Shown: positions 36,298 through 42,433, counted from the first letter of the stretch. The stretch is 64,000 bases of DNA from Candidatus Kaiserbacteria bacterium (GCA_017134395.1 CP070993.1:189656-253655), one strand, 5' to 3'. Notes: a model not told the origin generated them from the letters alone. Numbers and translations are program-made.

Positions 36298-36896
36298 TAC
36301 GATTTCTAGCAGATAAGTTCTTCAGACACTTTGCGGCGGAATTAGTTTCCTATCCTAGGTTTCTCTGCATACAATGCATCATAAGGAAGTGATGTCGCAC
36401 AATTTTTGGGAGGCAGAAGAGCTCCAAGACAGGCGATAGAGGTATCAAAGTGTACCAAAAGTTTACACGAAGGTTTCAGGGAGTTTCATCCTGATATAGA
36501 GACAGCTTTATAGATAGAAAAATATGCGAATCCGAACAAAAAATTTTGAAAATAAAAAATAGTAAAAGTATAAAAACGAACGTAAAACAAAAGAGTGCAA
36601 AAGAAGTAACAATAGTCGTCGAAAGCGATGGATTAAACCTAATCCGCACATCCGCATCACTACAGCCATTCTTACATTGCGTGATGTCGCAAAAGATATA
36701 TTGTAGGGCGTATAACACTTCTTTCCCGTCACTCTCCTGTTAAAGGAAGACTAGGAAGAAAACATTATATGCTCTACATTTAAGTAGAGTAAATAATGAA
36801 GTATAAACGTCCCACAACCCGACCGAATCCTGTTTCTCATTTTGATGAGGTGTCTGATATCGTGCCTACTGAAAAAGGGGTGTCCTCTACCCTGTC

Positions 36897-37664
36897 TCAA
36901 ATACCTACTGCAAATTTTTGAATAATTCTTTCTGCCTCTATGCGGCCTGTATCCATCAACATGCACTCGCCTTCTCTATATGTAATCAAACGTGTCTTAT
37001 GCAACTTTTCAGTAAGCACCTCTTTCTTAAACCGATGTTCATTTTTATATTCAATTGATTCAAACAACTCAACATCTAGTTGTTCATCTTTATAAAAAAG
37101 CAATACCAGCACCTCTTCCTCTGTCTTCAACCCAGTGTATTGCACCCTAACTAGCGACCCATTTTTCCAAAGCAGTGGAATTTGCCGCTCTGTGATTTGA
37201 TTAACAATTTGTTGAGTATCTTCAATTGATAAATTTGATTTTAATCGAACTATCTCAGATAAGACCCATTTTATAGAATACAGAATCAGCGTAGAGTCCA
37301 TTTCATTTGCTGAAACTAACCCAGGAACATGTCCTACGCCGCGCTTATTGCGAATATTATAGACGCTCCACAAAATCCTTGGGATAAATTGCCTGAACGC
37401 AATATCCCCTGATGCGTCTTGATAACGCTTTATTTCCCTCTCATCAAATCGTATTAGAGACTGAGAAAATGGTGTTCGCTTAAGATTAAGCTCTATCTCA
37501 ATAATTCTGCGTACTACTTCAACAAAGTGACCTGCATCAAGTTCAGACGGCTTCCATTTTCTAATAGCAAAACTGTTTTCAACCTCTGTGTAAGACTGTA
37601 TTAATTTATCAGCAATATCGTTTCCATATGCTGACTGCAAAAATTTATGAACTATCGGATTCAT
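36897..37664 (-). CDS. hypothetical protein with a candidate HEPN-like Rx6H motif (RNKRGVGH); distal gene of a two-gene operon
   Basis: 255 aa. No family recognised beyond the R-x6-H spacing. Overlaps the upstream gene by 20 nt. Sits in an AT-rich accessory region. Confidence 0.35.
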   Translation of the reverse strand: MNPIVHKFLQSAYGNDIADKLIQSYTEVENSFAIRKWKPSELDAGHFVEVVRRIIEIELNLKRTPFSQSLIRFDEREIKRYQDASGDIAFRQFIPRILWSVYNIRNKRGVGHVPGLVSANEMDSTLILYSIKWVLSEIVRLKSNLSIEDTQQIVNQITERQIPLLWKNGSLVRVQYTGLKTEEEVLVLLFYKDEQLDVELFESIEYKNEHRFKKEVLTEKLHKTRLITYREGECMLMDTGRIEAERIIQKFAVGI

Positions 37665-38214
37665 CGTTTGAACGAATGGACTTGATTAATTTTACCGCCT
37701 CCTTTTTTCCTGGGTTTGAAAGAGCGGCAACCTGATCCTTTCCCTTTCCTGAAATAGTTATCAGCTTTGGCTGGCTTTTAAGGTGTGCAGCAAAATTCTT
37801 TTTATGAAGGCATCCCTGTTTTTCACACTGAGATCTAATTTTCGACGTTGAGTCTTTTGTTTCGTCACCACCAGTGAGTTTTTCAAGTAAATATAAGTAT
37901 ATTAATGCTGCTTCTTGTGTATTTTTCTTATCATTGTTTTTATGTTGAAGGTCATAAACTAGCCTAATCTCACCATCTACCAACTGGGCGATATCCTCAA
38001 AATCATCGTCTCCTATATGCTCATCGGCGATATCATCCTTATGATTGTCCTTATCTGGAATGTTCTTTACTTTTTTTGTTTTAACCTGCCCAATCGTGTT
38101 ACGAATCTCTTTATCAAAAGACTCTATCATCTCCCTTACAAACTTCTCTGTCCCCATAACCTCAAATATTCCATCGTTGAGAGAGAAGACTGCGTGTGTT
38201 TTTTCCTTTTCCAT
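37645..38214 (-). CDS. hypothetical acidic/lysine-rich protein; proximal gene of the two-gene operon
   Basis: 189 aa with an acidic stretch (IADEHIGDDDFEDIAQLVDGE). No motif recognised. Translationally coupled to the downstream gene. Confidence 0.4.
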   Translation of the reverse strand: MEKEKTHAVFSLNDGIFEVMGTEKFVREMIESFDKEIRNTIGQVKTKKVKNIPDKDNHKDDIADEHIGDDDFEDIAQLVDGEIRLVYDLQHKNNDKKNTQEAALIYLYLLEKLTGGDETKDSTSKIRSQCEKQGCLHKKNFAAHLKSQPKLITISGKGKDQVAALSNPGKKEAVKLIKSIRSNDESDSS

Positions 38215-38311
38215 ATAAAGACATATTCCTACTGTTTAAGGACATTATCAAGTTCAATAGGTGCATAAGTCGTTTGATGTCTTTTTCTTGACCTAAACCT
38301 CTACAGTTTAT

Positions 38312-38330
38312 CTCCCCCCACCCCGCCGCA
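38312..38330 (+). repeat. copy 1 of a perfect 19-bp direct repeat, CTCCCCCCACCCCGCCGCA
   Basis: Identical to 41011-41029. The two copies bracket the DUF3800 and TM-protein genes. Confidence 0.8.
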
Positions 38331-38795
38331 TCCATTGAACACCACGGAACAATCTGATACATTTCTTGTACTGGTTGATGTGTACTGGCCACCACATCAC
38401 TTCCCGCAAGGGCGACACAGTCGGCTAACGCACAAGGTTTAGAGTGTGGGGATGCGCAACAATGATAGCGCTTGTAAAAACCGATCCCCACTATACTCTA
38501 CTCCTTGTGCGTTTTTTGATATCCATATAAAAACCCCCAGGAGGAATCATACGCGTCATCGAAACACACTAGATTCAACTCCCAGGGGTCAGTCCCTGCA
38601 CCTGGTCGCTATTATGCAAGAACTACGAGGGAGGTCCTACCAAAACCTATATCCCTCGCAGGTACATTTATACTTGAATGGTTAATGGTTTGCAATGTGT
38701 TTCCCTACCCTGTTGTGGTGTTTGGGTGAAGCTATCCCCATTCGCACATCCACCCTATTGCATTCCACCTACATCGAGGCGTAGTATGCGAGGAT

Positions 38796-41073: not shown

Positions 41074-41102
41074 TACACCTCCACAACAGCAAGGAGTTTC
41101 AA

Positions 41103-41186
41103 ATGAATCTCGCAGATTTTCTTATAGCACTCGTCATTCTTGCGGTTATTGGTGACATCATCGTGATGATTATCCAAGCCGTTTGA
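41103..41186 (+). CDS. 27-aa hydrophobic peptide, MNLADFLIALVILAVIGDIIVMIIQAV; type-I-toxin-like small membrane peptide (speculative)
   Basis: Strong promoter and Shine-Dalgarno 7 nt upstream. A single TM-length helix. Followed by a terminator hairpin at 41220-41268. Confidence 0.4.
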   Translation: MNLADFLIALVILAVIGDIIVMIIQAV

Positions 41187-41883
41187 GCAGAGAGCTGATT
41201 GAAACCTGAGTACATGTGGAAGGACTCAGCTTCATGATTCCAGGCTGAGTCCTTTACTGTTTTTATTCAATATCGCCGCACCCAAATAGAAAAGTCTCAG
41301 AGTACGCGGTGCAATTTGCATACACCCTCTGAGACTTCAGCCAGACAAATGAAAACAATTCACCTGCTCTATTAAGGCTTCTTCTTTTATATCATAAGTG
41401 GTGTGGTGGTGCTACTTCCCTGCCATACTCCTCATTTGATGGGAGTTTAATTATCTACTTATATTCTGTACATATAAAAAGGCGCCCAGACAGAAGTCTG
41501 GGCGCAAGGGTTTGGGGTGTGCGTGATTAGCTACGGCGCCGATCCTCTTTATAATGCTTGCTATCGCTTGAAAAGTCAATGTTCATTGACAACTACCCTA
41601 CCGTGGGTGCAGAATATGCATCCACTTCAACAAATACAAGGAAAAGAAGATGTCAAATCACGGTTTTCACCTTATCCCTCACGCAGGGATGTCGTTACTT
41701 GAGAAAGCGGCGTGGGTCTTCATCTTGCTTCTCATTGGTGCTGGGCTAGATTTTTTCCTAGTCTAAATTTGAGTTGAATTGGAGAGCCTAGCTCTTCACA
41801 GTGTTTTATATACGTGTGATTGAGCTGGGCTCTTTCTATTTTATTTAGTGAGATAATGGCTTAATATAAACCTGAAATGAATG

Positions 41884-41962
41884 AACGCCACCGCAGGAGT
41901 ACTTCCATTATTTCTAAACACTGCGTATTAAGAAAAATTGGTCGCTCAATTTATTGAGGTGT
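41884..41962 (+). repeat. repeated roughly 85-nt element, copy B
   Basis: Same core as 6486-6572, then a CTCAAT-TT-ATTGAG hairpin and a T-run. Confidence 0.75.
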
Positions 41963-41986
41963 TTGTTTTTTGCTGTTTTAACCATT

Positions 41987-42433
41987 TTACAGTTCTAAAT
42001 CGTGTATTTGCAGTTCCCCACTTGTTGCATCGAGCCACCGTACACCAGAAGGAACAATTTTAAACATCACAAAGTCCTCCCTATCTTTCACATAGTACTT
42101 TGCTGGGTTTTTTGCAGTAAACCATGCAAGTCTCTCTGCTGTTTTCTCGTGTGGTATTTCTTCTGCAATACCCTGTATGTCTACAACCTGTAATGGGTCA
42201 ATACTCTCTTGGACAACAGCAACAGATACGTGGTTGTCAGCCTGCAATGCTTTATATTTCCCGAAGCACTCACAGGTACCAAAGTAGATAGTAAAGTCAT
42301 CATCCACAGCATAGAGCATGAGTGATGAGTTTGGATGCTTTTCAATATCTAAGACAGTAAGTACCATCTTTCTGTGTCCCTCTAAGAAACTAAGGGCCTC
42401 ATCTTTTAAGATTTCGTTTGTCTTTTCTTCCAT
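41987..42433 (-). CDS. pyridoxamine 5-prime-phosphate oxidase-like FMN-binding split-barrel family protein
   Basis: Size about 148 aa and a central LMLYAVDDDFTIYFGT / VSVAV pattern typical of PNPOx-like / general stress protein 26 families, as I recall them. Confidence 0.5.
   Translation of the reverse strand: MEEKTNEILKDEALSFLEGHRKMVLTVLDIEKHPNSSLMLYAVDDDFTIYFGTCECFGKYKALQADNHVSVAVVQESIDPLQVVDIQGIAEEIPHEKTAERLAWFTAKNPAKYYVKDREDFVMFKIVPSGVRWLDATSGELQIHDLEL

What the first reader, a model, noticed from the sequence alone, without database searches (positions are those of the whole stretch)
36298..41990. Accessory island between the cell-wall block and the SPFH/PNPOx genes; candidate defence or toxin locus
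This roughly 5.7 kb stretch breaks the otherwise compact housekeeping layout. It has long non-coding spacers, a GC-rich block, and genes with no housekeeping identity. These are a translationally coupled minus-strand pair, a DUF3800 protein, a TM protein and a tiny hydrophobic peptide. Perfect direct and inverted repeats are also present. I see no integrase or transposase. It could be a decayed integrative element or a native defence/abortive-infection island. Candidate HEPN-like toxin, DUF3800, TM effector and a type-I-toxin-like peptide together would fit that reading.
Basis: partly seen in the sequence, partly recalled or inferred. Interest (0 to 1): 0.65.

Follow-up and report, generated by a model that had tools for sequence, protein, structure and literature searches.

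The report
Mosaic accessory island with nuclease-linked small RNA
This stretch of a tiny uncultured bacterium's genome is a patchwork of imported genes, and one of them, a DUF3800 nuclease gene, is always paired with a small folded RNA that Rfam does not list and whose role is unknown.

Summary
The window comes from a Candidatus Kaiserbacteria genome. The slot after the M23 peptidase gene varies from 0.5 to 9.9 kb in 57 related genomes. The closest relative lacks all four island genes, so the insert proper is about 36713-41476. Its genes are 3-4 sd lower in GC than the rest of the window.

It is a mosaic of unrelated modules, not one element:
- **B-A operon.** Two overlapping genes. A has an invariant RNxxxxxH motif on a helical bundle that resembles HEPN, plus a winged helix. 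The pair recurs in Bacteroidota, Alphaproteobacteria and other bacteria of unknown lineage.
- **DUF3800 gene plus small RNA.** It is about 80 nt, on the opposite strand (39724-39645), with three hairpins, its own -10 box and a shared terminator. It lies beside 78 of 80 metagenomic homologues and 3 rhizobial plasmid copies. Compensatory changes support 14-19 of its 20 base pairs. No Rfam 15 family matches it.
- **Protein D.** A membrane-anchored four-helix bundle from an uncharacterised family.
- **Orphan features.** A 27-aa hydrophobic ORF, a 19-nt perfect repeat and a GC-richer block remain unexplained.

A defence or toxin role is plausible but not shown. No PADLOC match was found, and there is no integrase.

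The parts
36713..41476 (.). Inserted segment proper (4.76 kb). The closest relative L005 has an unrelated 245-bp filler here.
   Evidence: blastn of the window against L005: homology stops at 36712 and resumes at 41477. GC is 0.387 against a window mean of 0.420.
36897..37664 (-). Gene A, 255 aa (NCBI annotates 247 aa, JXR01_01170). N-terminal helical domain that resembles HEPN, with an invariant RNKRGVGH motif, plus a C-terminal winged helix.
37645..38214 (-). Gene B, 189 aa, upstream partner of A. Small N-terminal domain, variable acidic linker, conserved C-terminal domain.
   Evidence: A 181-202 aa (536-609 nt) ORF ends 4-17 nt inside A's start in L001, L002, L165 and L167; in L004 an uncalled ORF abuts A's start. 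L003, L166 and L168 are near-identical copies of L002, L165 and L167. Alignment A7 shows 25-39% identity with invariant R127, C130, N140, F141. No family match.
38215..38795 (.). GC-richer non-coding block. It must hold the B-A promoter. It also holds copy 1 of the 19-nt repeat and a long hairpin followed by a T-run. The DUF3800 promoter-like site lies at its right end.
   Evidence: GC 0.461. No Rfam match. No homologue in any fetched locus. The hairpin region folds with z=-3.8.
38312..38330 (+). 19-nt perfect direct repeat, copy 1 (CTCCCCCCACCCCGCCGCA).
   Evidence: 2 copies in 64 kb, 0 expected by chance.
38796..39638 (+). Gene C, DUF3800 protein, 280 aa. The literature describes this family as an RNase H-fold nuclease.
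   Evidence: PF12686 at 47.5 bits. Invariant D22, Q227 and D230, with D23 nearly invariant. 283 homologues.
39645..39724 (-). Structured small RNA gene, about 80 nt, convergent with C. It has a 5' hairpin (GGGC/GCCC), a CGG linker, a second hairpin with a conserved U.G pair, a variable linker and a terminator hairpin with a U-run.
   Evidence: nhmmer. MAFFT alignment: 97.1% of cells paired and 14/20 pairs with double-sided changes, reached by 0/500 shuffles. RNAalifold gives the same hairpins. The covariance model scores 64.7 bits here and matches 78/80 loci. 97 G.U against 10 A.C cells.
39730..39758 (-). Promoter-like site of the small RNA (TTGTAA-17-TATATT with an extended TG).
   Evidence: A TAnnnT box lies 2-11 nt upstream of the model start in 54/79 loci.
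39859..39915 (.). AT-rich 27-nt inverted repeat between the small RNA promoter and gene D. It overlaps a plus-strand promoter-like site at 39847-39875.
   Evidence: Function not determined.
40013..40867 (+). Gene D, 284 aa, membrane-anchored four-helix-bundle protein of an uncharacterised family.
41011..41029 (+). 19-nt perfect direct repeat, copy 2. It lies 17 nt upstream of the -35 of the small ORF's promoter-like site.
41047..41265 (+). Small expression unit. Promoter-like TTGACA-16-TATAGT, AAGGAG, a 27-aa hydrophobic ORF (41103-41186, MNLADFLIALVILAVIGDIIVMIIQAV), then a hairpin at 41220-41254 followed by a T-run.
   Evidence: No homologue found in 1.8 Mb of fetched loci.
36298..36712 (.). 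Native non-coding flank, not part of the insert.
   Evidence: 83-88% identical to L005.
41477..41986 (.). Native non-coding flank, not part of the insert. It starts with a minus-strand terminator-like hairpin at 41482-41505.
   Evidence: 78% identical to L005, with weaker matches in L006-L008.

Best explanation
The stretch is a strain-specific patchwork of independently acquired modules. It sits in a variable slot downstream of the M23 peptidase gene of a Kaiserbacteria genome.

**Shown**
- The slot is variable, and the closest relative lacks all the cargo.
- The cargo genes deviate in composition from the rest of the window.
- The modules do not travel together elsewhere.

**Module 1: the B-A operon.** A has an N-terminal helical domain with an invariant R-N-x5-H motif and a C-terminal winged helix. 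B is a fast-evolving partner with an acidic linker.
- Inferred: A is a HEPN-type RNase held in check by B, as in a toxin-antitoxin or abortive-infection pair. One of the winged helices would autoregulate the operon.

**Module 2: the DUF3800 gene and its small RNA.** DUF3800 is described in the literature as an RNase H-fold nuclease. An RNA of about 80 nt is transcribed convergently from its own promoter. It ends in the terminator hairpin it shares with the gene.
- Shown: the RNA's three hairpins covary. It is on the strand opposite the gene. It accompanies nearly every member of this DUF3800 subfamily, from candidate-phyla bacteria to rhizobial plasmids. No other gene does so.
- Inferred: the RNA is the nuclease's cognate ligand. 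Most likely it binds and restrains or licenses the nuclease, as an RNA antitoxin or cofactor would, and is not a simple antisense regulator.

**Module 3: protein D and the rest.** D is a membrane-anchored helical bundle. Its function, and that of the orphan small ORF, is unassigned.
For: **Island status**
- Synteny MurG-GluRS-M23-[gap]-(PNPOx)-(SPFH)-Exo-P151-L27 holds across 80 loci. The gap is 0.5-9.9 kb.
- L005, at about 88% aa identity, lacks A-D and keeps both non-coding flanks.
- Island genes are 0.368-0.375 GC against 0.425 +/- 0.015.

**Mosaic**
- No A, B, D or E homologue occurs in 80 DUF3800 loci, and no other recurrent neighbour family was found.
- B-A occurs as a lone pair in Bacteroidota, Ferrovibrio and other genomes.

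**Protein A**
- Invariant R105, R108, G109 and H112.
- Model pLDDT 92.

**Small RNA**
- Unfitted MAFFT alignment of 53 sequences: 97.1% paired, 14/20 pairs with compensatory change, 0/500 shuffles as high, slid controls 22-59%.
- RNAalifold finds the same helices.
- Model-guided alignment of 82 matches: 99.1% paired, 19/20 pairs compensatory.
- The covariance model hits the window and 78/80 loci, always on the minus strand next to the DUF3800 stop.
- It finds nothing convincing in 1.37 Mb of control loci.
- It is present on Sinorhizobium, Mesorhizobium and Rhizobium plasmids.
- 97 G.U against 10 A.C cells.
- A conserved -10 box.

**Literature**
- DUF3800 is an RNase H-fold protein linked to 11 other RNA motifs (PMC5737381).
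- It is also linked to type VII retrons (PMC7736814) and to Cas12a2 and Cas13 loci (PMC10910872, PMC12669027).
Against: - No protein matches PADLOC, PHROGs or NCBIfam models.
- A has no sequence match to any Pfam HEPN family or any PDB chain.
- Foldseek gives no significant HEPN match; Csm6 scores E about 1.2.
- B has no recognisable fold or family.
- There is no expression data for anything here.
- Cargo of the same slot in other genomes is mostly not defence-related. It includes transporters, glycosidases and sugar enzymes.
- The 19-nt repeat and the GC block are not explained by this model.
- I could not read the published alignments of DUF3800-II to -XI, so identity with a published motif that is absent from Rfam cannot be fully excluded.
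Confidence: 0.6

Rival explanations
1. The whole 4.8 kb is one decayed integrative element (prophage or island remnant) that arrived in a single event and lost its integrase. The 19-nt repeats would be att remnants.
For: Absent from the closest relative. Low GC throughout its genes. A perfect 19-nt direct repeat. Tyrosine recombinase genes occupy the same slot in L020 and L028.
Against: The repeats lie at 38312 and 41011, not at the boundaries 36713 and 41476. No integrase, transposase or phage protein match was found. The modules never co-occur elsewhere. The 19-mer is absent from viral contigs and from all fetched loci. A is absent from phage, plasmid and viral collections.
Confidence: 0.12
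2. The RNA next to DUF3800 works as a cis-encoded antisense regulator. It would act like the 3'-overlapping RNA antitoxins of Gram-positive type I systems, pairing with the 3' end of the DUF3800 mRNA through the shared terminator to control its stability. It would not bind the protein.
For: The arrangement is convergent with a shared bidirectional terminator. In many loci the RNA's 3' end overlaps the ORF end by up to about 38 nt. On the plus strand the hairpin is followed by no U-run, since its Ts lie within the stem, so read-through would create a duplex (read).
Against: The best-conserved and covarying parts are the two 5' hairpins and the near-invariant single-stranded CGG and GCCG. These lie outside the overlap, yet they are conserved from candidate-phyla bacteria to Alphaproteobacteria. 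Pure antisense function needs no such conservation.
Confidence: 0.2
3. The conserved element after DUF3800 is not an RNA gene. It would be a DNA-level site, or simply the 3' UTR and terminator of the DUF3800 mRNA.
For: It directly abuts the stop codon and contains the gene's terminator hairpin. There is no expression data.
Against: Pairing is 97.1% canonical on the opposite strand and 88.5% on the gene's strand. In the two 5' hairpins there are 52 G.U cells against 1 A.C. A -10-like box sits at a fixed distance on the opposite strand. Compensatory changes maintain hairpins, which a protein-binding DNA site would not require.
Confidence: 0.08
4. B-A is a regulatory pair with no toxic activity, made of a winged-helix transcription factor with a helical sensor domain and a partner. 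The R-x6-H motif would serve ligand or partner binding.
For: The only domain recognised with high confidence is the winged helix. HEPN fold support is no better than for generic helical bundles. In L165 the pair sits among housekeeping genes.
Against: Invariant R, N and H residues with HEPN-like spacing across 42 sequences from several phyla. The patchy, horizontally scattered distribution as a lone two-gene cassette, once next to IS1595 copies. Overlapping gene order with a fast-evolving upstream partner, which is typical of toxin-antitoxin pairs (general knowledge).
Confidence: 0.25

Closest known systems
DUF3800-associated RNA motifs (DUF3800-I to -XI; Weinberg et al. 2017, PMC5737381; Rfam RF02969, RF02968 and others)
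   Same: A conserved, covarying structured RNA lies next to a DUF3800 gene. It can sit on the other strand, and several of the published motifs end in an intrinsic terminator. Function is unknown for all of them.
   Different: No Rfam 15 family matches it in the window, in 20 metagenomic loci or in 3 plasmid loci. The published motifs are said not to resemble each other, so this looks like a further structural class. Here the strand, promoter, terminator and near-universal linkage to one protein subfamily are defined.
Type III toxin-antitoxin systems (ToxIN, CptIN): an RNA antitoxin that binds and inhibits an endoribonuclease toxin
   Same: A two-component nuclease-plus-small-structured-RNA cassette with no other conserved partner. 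It is scattered horizontally and found on plasmids.
   Different: ToxI-type antitoxins are tandem repeats upstream of the toxin on the same strand, and the toxin processes them (own knowledge). Here the RNA is a single copy, convergent and downstream, and the protein is RNase H-fold rather than a ToxN/CcdB-like fold. Toxicity and binding are untested.
Type VII retrons, in which a reverse transcriptase and its ncRNA are paired with a DUF3800 effector (Mestre et al. 2020, PMC7736814)
   Same: A DUF3800 protein is coupled to a dedicated structured non-coding nucleic acid in a presumed immune module.
   Different: No reverse transcriptase is present in the island or recurrent in the 80 loci. The RNA has no msr/msd-like architecture.
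HEPN toxin modules (HEPN-MNT, RnlA/LsoA, AbiD/F and similar; Anantharaman et al. 2013, own knowledge)
   Same: Protein A has an invariant R-N-x5-H motif on a helical-bundle domain. It is encoded second in an overlapping two-gene operon that is scattered across phyla.
   Different: It matches no Pfam HEPN family. The partner B is not a nucleotidyltransferase and has no known fold. A carries a C-terminal winged helix. Activity is untested.
Type I toxins (small hydrophobic peptides such as Ibs, Fst, TisB)
   Same: ORF E encodes 27 mostly hydrophobic residues with its own promoter-like site, ribosome-binding site and terminator-like hairpin.
   Different: No antisense RNA promoter was detected over the ORF and no homologue was found. 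This is a resemblance only.

Membership tests
DUF3800 (Pfam PF12686) | Match to the family HMM above the gathering score | tested here: met
   47.5 bits against a cutoff of 21, E=3.9e-12, profile positions 1-148 of 149.
DUF3800 (Pfam PF12686) | N-terminal acidic pair (DE-type) and C-terminal QxxD motif (as described in PMC7736814) | tested here: met
   D22 is invariant and D23 is conserved in at least 90% of sequences (DDSG). Q227, A229 and D230 are invariant (QVAD) in 29 sequences.
DUF3800 (Pfam PF12686) | RNase H-like fold and nuclease activity | not tested
   Taken from PMC7736814, PMC10910872 and PMC12669027. No model of C was made here.
DUF3800-associated RNA motifs (kind) | Conserved RNA secondary structure with covariation, consistently adjacent to DUF3800 genes | tested here: met
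   (covariation); 78/80 loci plus 3 plasmids, and none in 1.37 Mb of controls.
Rfam families DUF3800-I to -XI, drum, skipping-rope | Covariance-model match at or near the gathering score | tested here: not met
   No such hit in the window, even at E<=10 on 141 nt, in L085-L104 or in L169-L171. Only DUF3800-I and -IX are documented as being in Rfam 15. The original alignments could not be read.
HEPN superfamily | Rx4-6H motif with a polar residue after R | tested here: met
   R105-N106-x5-H112 is invariant or nearly invariant in 42 sequences.
HEPN superfamily | Four-helix up-down bundle fold similar to solved HEPN domains | tested here: inconclusive
HEPN superfamily | Sequence membership in a described HEPN family | tested here: not met
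   No Pfam, NCBIfam or PADLOC match for A or for 41 homologues. No PDB sequence match.
Type II toxin-antitoxin module | Two small co-directional, overlapping genes that are conserved as a pair | tested here: met
   The overlap is 20 nt here and 4-17 nt in L001, L002, L165 and L167. In L004 the uncalled upstream ORF abuts A.
Type II toxin-antitoxin module | Toxicity of one partner neutralised by the other | not testable with these tools
   Needs expression experiments.
Known anti-phage defence systems (PADLOC-DB 2.0) | HMM match of any component | tested here: not met
   0 families for A, B, C, D and E at E<=0.1.
Integrative mobile element / genomic island | Absent from close relatives and compositionally deviant | tested here: met
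Integrative mobile element / genomic island | Integrase or transposase, and direct repeats at the boundaries | tested here: not met
   No recombinase domain. No repeat longer than 6 nt at the junctions. The 19-nt repeats are internal.
Type I toxin-antitoxin | Small hydrophobic toxin ORF with an overlapping antisense RNA | tested here: inconclusive
   The ORF and its expression signals are present. No antisense promoter was found by consensus scan. No homologues were found.

The most novel reading that the evidence does not exclude
DUF3800 nucleases of this subfamily are RNA-governed enzymes. The convergent 80-nt RNA would be an obligatory partner, either an antitoxin or sensor whose loss unleashes the RNase H-fold nuclease, or a cofactor that directs it. 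The pair would then be a self-contained two-component immune or addiction module. That would give a first handle on why at least a dozen unrelated RNA structures have each become attached to DUF3800 genes.
Probability: 0.3. Interest if true: 0.75.

Novelty: new member of a known kind. Interest (0 to 1): 0.55.

Why it matters
DUF3800 proteins turn up beside retrons, Cas12a2/Cas12a3 and Cas13 loci, and eleven unrelated RNA motifs. Nobody knows what the protein-RNA pairing does.

This window adds a further RNA class for which the basic facts can be read from sequence alone:
- which strand it is on;
- where it starts and ends;
- that it has three covarying hairpins;
- that it is the only constant neighbour of one DUF3800 subfamily.

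The same pair sits on conjugative plasmids of culturable rhizobia. In Rhizobium etli it lies next to TIR and caspase-like genes, and in Mesorhizobium next to an ATPase-helicase pair. The question can therefore be tested directly at the bench.

The B-A pair also defines a widespread two-gene cassette of more than 280 proteins, resembling HEPN modules, that has no Pfam family.

For genome scanning, the case shows that a 'defence island' in a reduced candidate-phyla genome can be a patchwork of single modules in a general-purpose variable slot.

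Tried and rejected
1. **GC block as the DUF3800-associated RNA.** Rejected. It has no conservation in 80 DUF3800 loci, no Rfam hit and no homologue anywhere. Only its hairpin folds unusually well.
2. **RNA on the same strand as DUF3800.** Rejected, because of conserved C.A mismatches on that strand.
3. **D related to the TM protein next to B-A in L001.** Rejected, BLASTP E=0.53.
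4. **D as a conserved partner of DUF3800, or A/B as partners of DUF3800.** Rejected.
5. **19-mer as a phage att site.** No viral contig carries it. It has no copies in the fetched loci and no similar flanks.
6. **The slot as a dedicated defence hotspot.** Not supported. Cargo elsewhere is transporters, glycosidases, sugar enzymes, surface proteins and two tyrosine recombinases.
7. **Homologues of B by word-indexed search.** Only B itself was found.
8. **A in phages, plasmids or viral contigs.** None.
9. **Exact-sequence look-ups.** Failed for A with the long start and for P0047.
10. **AFDB fold library.** Not available.
11. **Supplementary alignments of the 2017 motif paper.** Not held.

Full report
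**Source and layout.** Protein A is 100% identical, over the 247 residues annotated, to a hypothetical protein of a Candidatus Kaiserbacteria MAG (locus tag JXR01_01170, contig 687,746 bp).
- two overlapping minus-strand ORFs, A at 36897-37664 and B at 37645-38214;
- a 581-bp non-coding block;
- a DUF3800 gene C at 38796-39638 (PF12686, E=3.9e-12);
- a 374-bp spacer;
- a 284-aa protein D with hydrophobic N-terminal helices, at 40013-40867;
- a 27-aa hydrophobic ORF E at 41103-41186. It has a TTGACA-16-TATAGT promoter-like site, and an AAGGAG and a terminator-like hairpin that I read from the sequence.

A perfect 19-nt direct repeat lies at 38312 and 41011, with none expected by chance. A 27-nt AT-rich inverted repeat lies at 39859-39915. 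No recombinase domain is present. No protein matches PADLOC, PHROGs or NCBIfam at meaningful levels.

**Is it an island?** I fetched 80 loci from species-representative genomes using the M23 peptidase as query. I then mapped the window's proteins onto them.
- The order MurG-GluRS-M23-[gap]-(PNPOx)-(SPFH)-exonuclease-P151-L27-L9-S41 protease is conserved across Paceibacteria.
- The gap after M23 ranges from 509 bp to 9.9 kb in 57 genomes, with a median of 2.2 kb.
- The closest relative is L005 (UBA2100), with about 88-94% protein identity. There M23 and PNPOx are 1.6 kb apart and A, B, C and D are absent.
- Window 36364-36712 and 41477-41889 align to L005 at 83% and 78%.
- The insert proper is therefore about 36713-41476. 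L005 has an unrelated 245-bp filler in that place.
- The junctions show no target duplication or inverted repeat.
- A, B and C have 0.368-0.375 GC. The 44 other ORFs of the window have 0.425 +/- 0.015.
- A more distant relative, L001, carries a B-A pair in the same slot. It is in the opposite orientation and among different cargo: NYN, DUF2441 and another TM protein.
- Cargo of the slot elsewhere is heterogeneous. It includes MacB-type ABC transporters, glycosidases, PGI/ROK, surface proteins and two tyrosine recombinases.

The slot is thus a general variable region and not a dedicated defence hotspot.

**The island is a mosaic.** None of A, B, D or E has a homologue in 80 metagenomic loci that carry close relatives of C. 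Clustering all flanking ORFs of those loci finds no recurrent neighbour family. The B-A pair occurs alone in several settings:
- in Bacteroidota, next to IS1595 copies;
- in Ferrovibrio, between haem-uptake and regulatory genes;
- among housekeeping genes in a JGI metagenome contig of unknown lineage;
- in a Crocinitomicaceae genome.

**Module 1, B-A.**
- A has at least 284 homologues of uniform length, about 250 aa, at 45-62% identity. None has a Pfam domain.
- The alignment shows invariant W37, K38, E41, G45, H46 and an invariant R105...R108-G109...H112 within 'IRNKRGVGH'. This is an R-N-x5-H pattern that fits the HEPN Rx4-6H signature.
- An AlphaFold model built with 42 sequences has pLDDT 92.
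- Foldseek gives no significant HEPN match.
- I therefore rate 'HEPN' as probable, resting mainly on the motif.
- In L001, L002, L165 and L167, an upstream ORF of 181-202 aa overlaps A's start by 4-17 nt. In L004, an uncalled ORF abuts A's start. L003, L166 and L168 are near-identical copies of L002, L165 and L167.
- These B proteins share only 25-39% identity. They keep a small N-terminal domain, a variable acidic linker and a C-terminal domain with invariant R127, C130, N140 and F141.
- The gene order, the overlap, the fast-evolving upstream partner and the scattered distribution are what a toxin-antitoxin or abortive-infection pair would show. That is inference.
- A is absent from phage, plasmid and viral-contig collections.

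**Module 2, DUF3800 and a small RNA.** The literature led here. DUF3800 genes are known to associate with eleven mutually dissimilar RNA motifs of unknown function (PMC5737381). The domain is described as RNase H-like, and it is found in type VII retrons and beside Cas12a2 and Cas13.

I fetched 80 metagenomic loci with relatives of C and searched them with the window's non-coding segments.
- The GC block upstream of C has no counterpart.
- The 100 nt immediately after the stop codon are conserved in most loci.
- The element has three hairpins separated by near-invariant single-stranded CGG and GCCG(A/G)C.
- On the DUF3800 strand, two helix positions carry conserved C.A mismatches. On the opposite strand these are U.G pairs.

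Counting on an unfitted MAFFT alignment of 53 sequences gives:
- 97.1% standard pairs;
- 14 of 20 pairs with changes on both sides;
- 131 compensatory cells;
- none of 500 shuffles as high;
- slid controls at 22-59%.

RNAalifold predicts the same helices. Across all pairs there are 97 G.U against 10 A.C cells. In the two 5' hairpins the count is 52 against 1. The RNA is therefore read from the strand opposite DUF3800.

On that strand a TAnnnT box sits a few bases upstream of the conserved (U)AUGGGC in 54 of 79 loci. In the window this box is part of a TTGTAA-17-TATATT site at 39758-39730. The third hairpin is followed by a U-run. It is the same hairpin that follows the DUF3800 ORF on the other strand.

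A covariance model built from the alignment gives these results:
- It matches the window at 39651-39724 with 64.7 bits.
- It matches 78 of 80 loci at 23-79 bits, always on the minus strand beside the stop codon.
- One of the two misses, L145, has only 84 nt of contig after the gene.
- In 1.37 Mb of control Paceibacteria loci the best score is 20.5 bits.
- On a model-guided alignment of 82 matches, 19 of 20 pairs show compensatory change. That alignment is fitted to the structure.

The same protein subfamily is on 36 rhizobial plasmids. The RNA is found after the gene on pSmeSM11b at 45.6 bits, on a Mesorhizobium terrae plasmid at 67.3 bits and, more weakly, on R. etli p42a at 24.5 bits. Neighbours there include TIR, caspase-like and E2-like genes, or an AAA ATPase plus a helicase.

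No Rfam 15 family matches the element in any of these tests:
- at gathering score in the window or in 20 loci;
- at E<=10 on the 141-nt stretch;
- in the plasmid loci.

Rfam 15 does contain DUF3800-I and DUF3800-IX. I could not read the original motif alignments. Identity with a published motif that is not in Rfam therefore cannot be formally excluded.

**How the pair may work.**
- Shown: a dedicated, structured RNA of about 80 nt with its own promoter and terminator is the only constant neighbour of this nuclease subfamily across distant phyla.
- Inferred: the protein recognises the RNA. The strongest conservation lies in the 5' hairpins and linkers, outside the region that overlaps the mRNA. 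This argues against a purely antisense role, although the 3' ends do overlap by up to about 38 nt in many loci.
- The most economical mechanism is an RNA that binds and restrains, or licenses, the nuclease. This works like a type III antitoxin, or like the non-coding nucleic acid of a retron that keeps a DUF3800 effector in check.
- It is not a member of either family. There are no tandem repeats on the toxin strand and no reverse transcriptase.

**Module 3 and orphan features.**
- D belongs to a family of about 120 cluster representatives with no Pfam or PDB sequence match. Its confident model (pLDDT 94.5) is an N-terminal membrane helix running into a four-helix bundle. It resembles only generic bundles and sensor domains. 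No function can be assigned.
- E has expression signals but no homologue.
- Each copy of the 19-nt repeat sits just upstream of a plus-strand promoter-like site. The two copies bracket the block C, RNA and D. They are not at the island boundaries and occur nowhere else that I could search.
- The GC block contains a 19-bp-stem hairpin followed by a T-run (fold z=-3.8). It might be an orphan small RNA.

These features remain unexplained.

**Verdict.** The 'single decayed element' and 'defence island' framings are not supported as stated. The locus is a patchwork of single modules in a general variable slot, and no component matches a catalogued defence system. The most valuable content is a DUF3800-linked small RNA with strong comparative support that is not in Rfam. 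The second is an uncatalogued, widespread two-gene cassette that resembles HEPN modules. Both are new members of known kinds, and both are testable in culturable bacteria.

Noticed in passing
window 36364-36712 and 41477-41889: Native non-coding DNA flanking the insert is conserved with the closest relative at 83% and 78%, with weaker matches in L006-L008. It contains small ORFs that are 70% (35 aa, 36406-36513) and 52% (38 aa TM, 41650-41766) identical at protein level in L005. It also has a strong minus-strand terminator-like hairpin at 41482-41505. These could be native small genes or small RNAs.
   Followed up: partly
L005-L084, downstream of the M23 peptidase match: The slot after the M23 gene varies from 0.5 to 9.9 kb in 57 Paceibacteria genomes. 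Its cargo includes MacB-type ABC transporter sets (L032, L036), glycosidases (L036), PGI/ROK (L028) and XerC/D-like tyrosine recombinases (L020, L028).
   Followed up: partly
L170 (R. etli p42a, locus 949-3834) and L171 (M. terrae plasmid, locus 1-3822): On rhizobial plasmids the DUF3800+RNA pair sits next to TIR-domain, caspase-family and E2-ligase-fold genes, or next to an AAA ATPase plus an ATP-dependent helicase. Both contexts look like defence clusters.
   Followed up: no
L085-L164, 3' ends of the DUF3800 ORFs: In many loci the small RNA's terminator and U-tail overlap the last 20-38 nt of the DUF3800 coding sequence. In the window they lie about 7-13 nt beyond the stop codon.
   Followed up: partly
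window 41285-41478, minus strand: A promoter-like site (TTTATA-17-GATAAT, 41478-41450) is followed about 110 nt downstream by a 10-bp hairpin (41296-41341) with a T-run on the minus strand. This may be a second orphan small transcript beside the small ORF E.
   Followed up: no
L001 3015-12935: A more distant relative carries B-A in the same slot, together with a NYN-domain gene, a DUF2441 gene, a DUF378 gene and another 255-aa TM protein unrelated to D.
   Followed up: partly
L095 139-260 (minus strand): A LOOT RNA (RF03000, 67.7 bits) lies about 2.7 kb upstream of a DUF3800 gene in one metagenomic locus. Several loci have tRNA genes within 100 nt to 3 kb of the DUF3800 gene (L085, L098, L103).
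   Followed up: no
window 43870-44325 (minus) and 44271-44543 (plus): The 151-aa ORF next to L27 overlaps the L27 gene start by 55 nt as listed, so its true start is probably further downstream. The gene is conserved next to L27 in most relatives.
   Followed up: no
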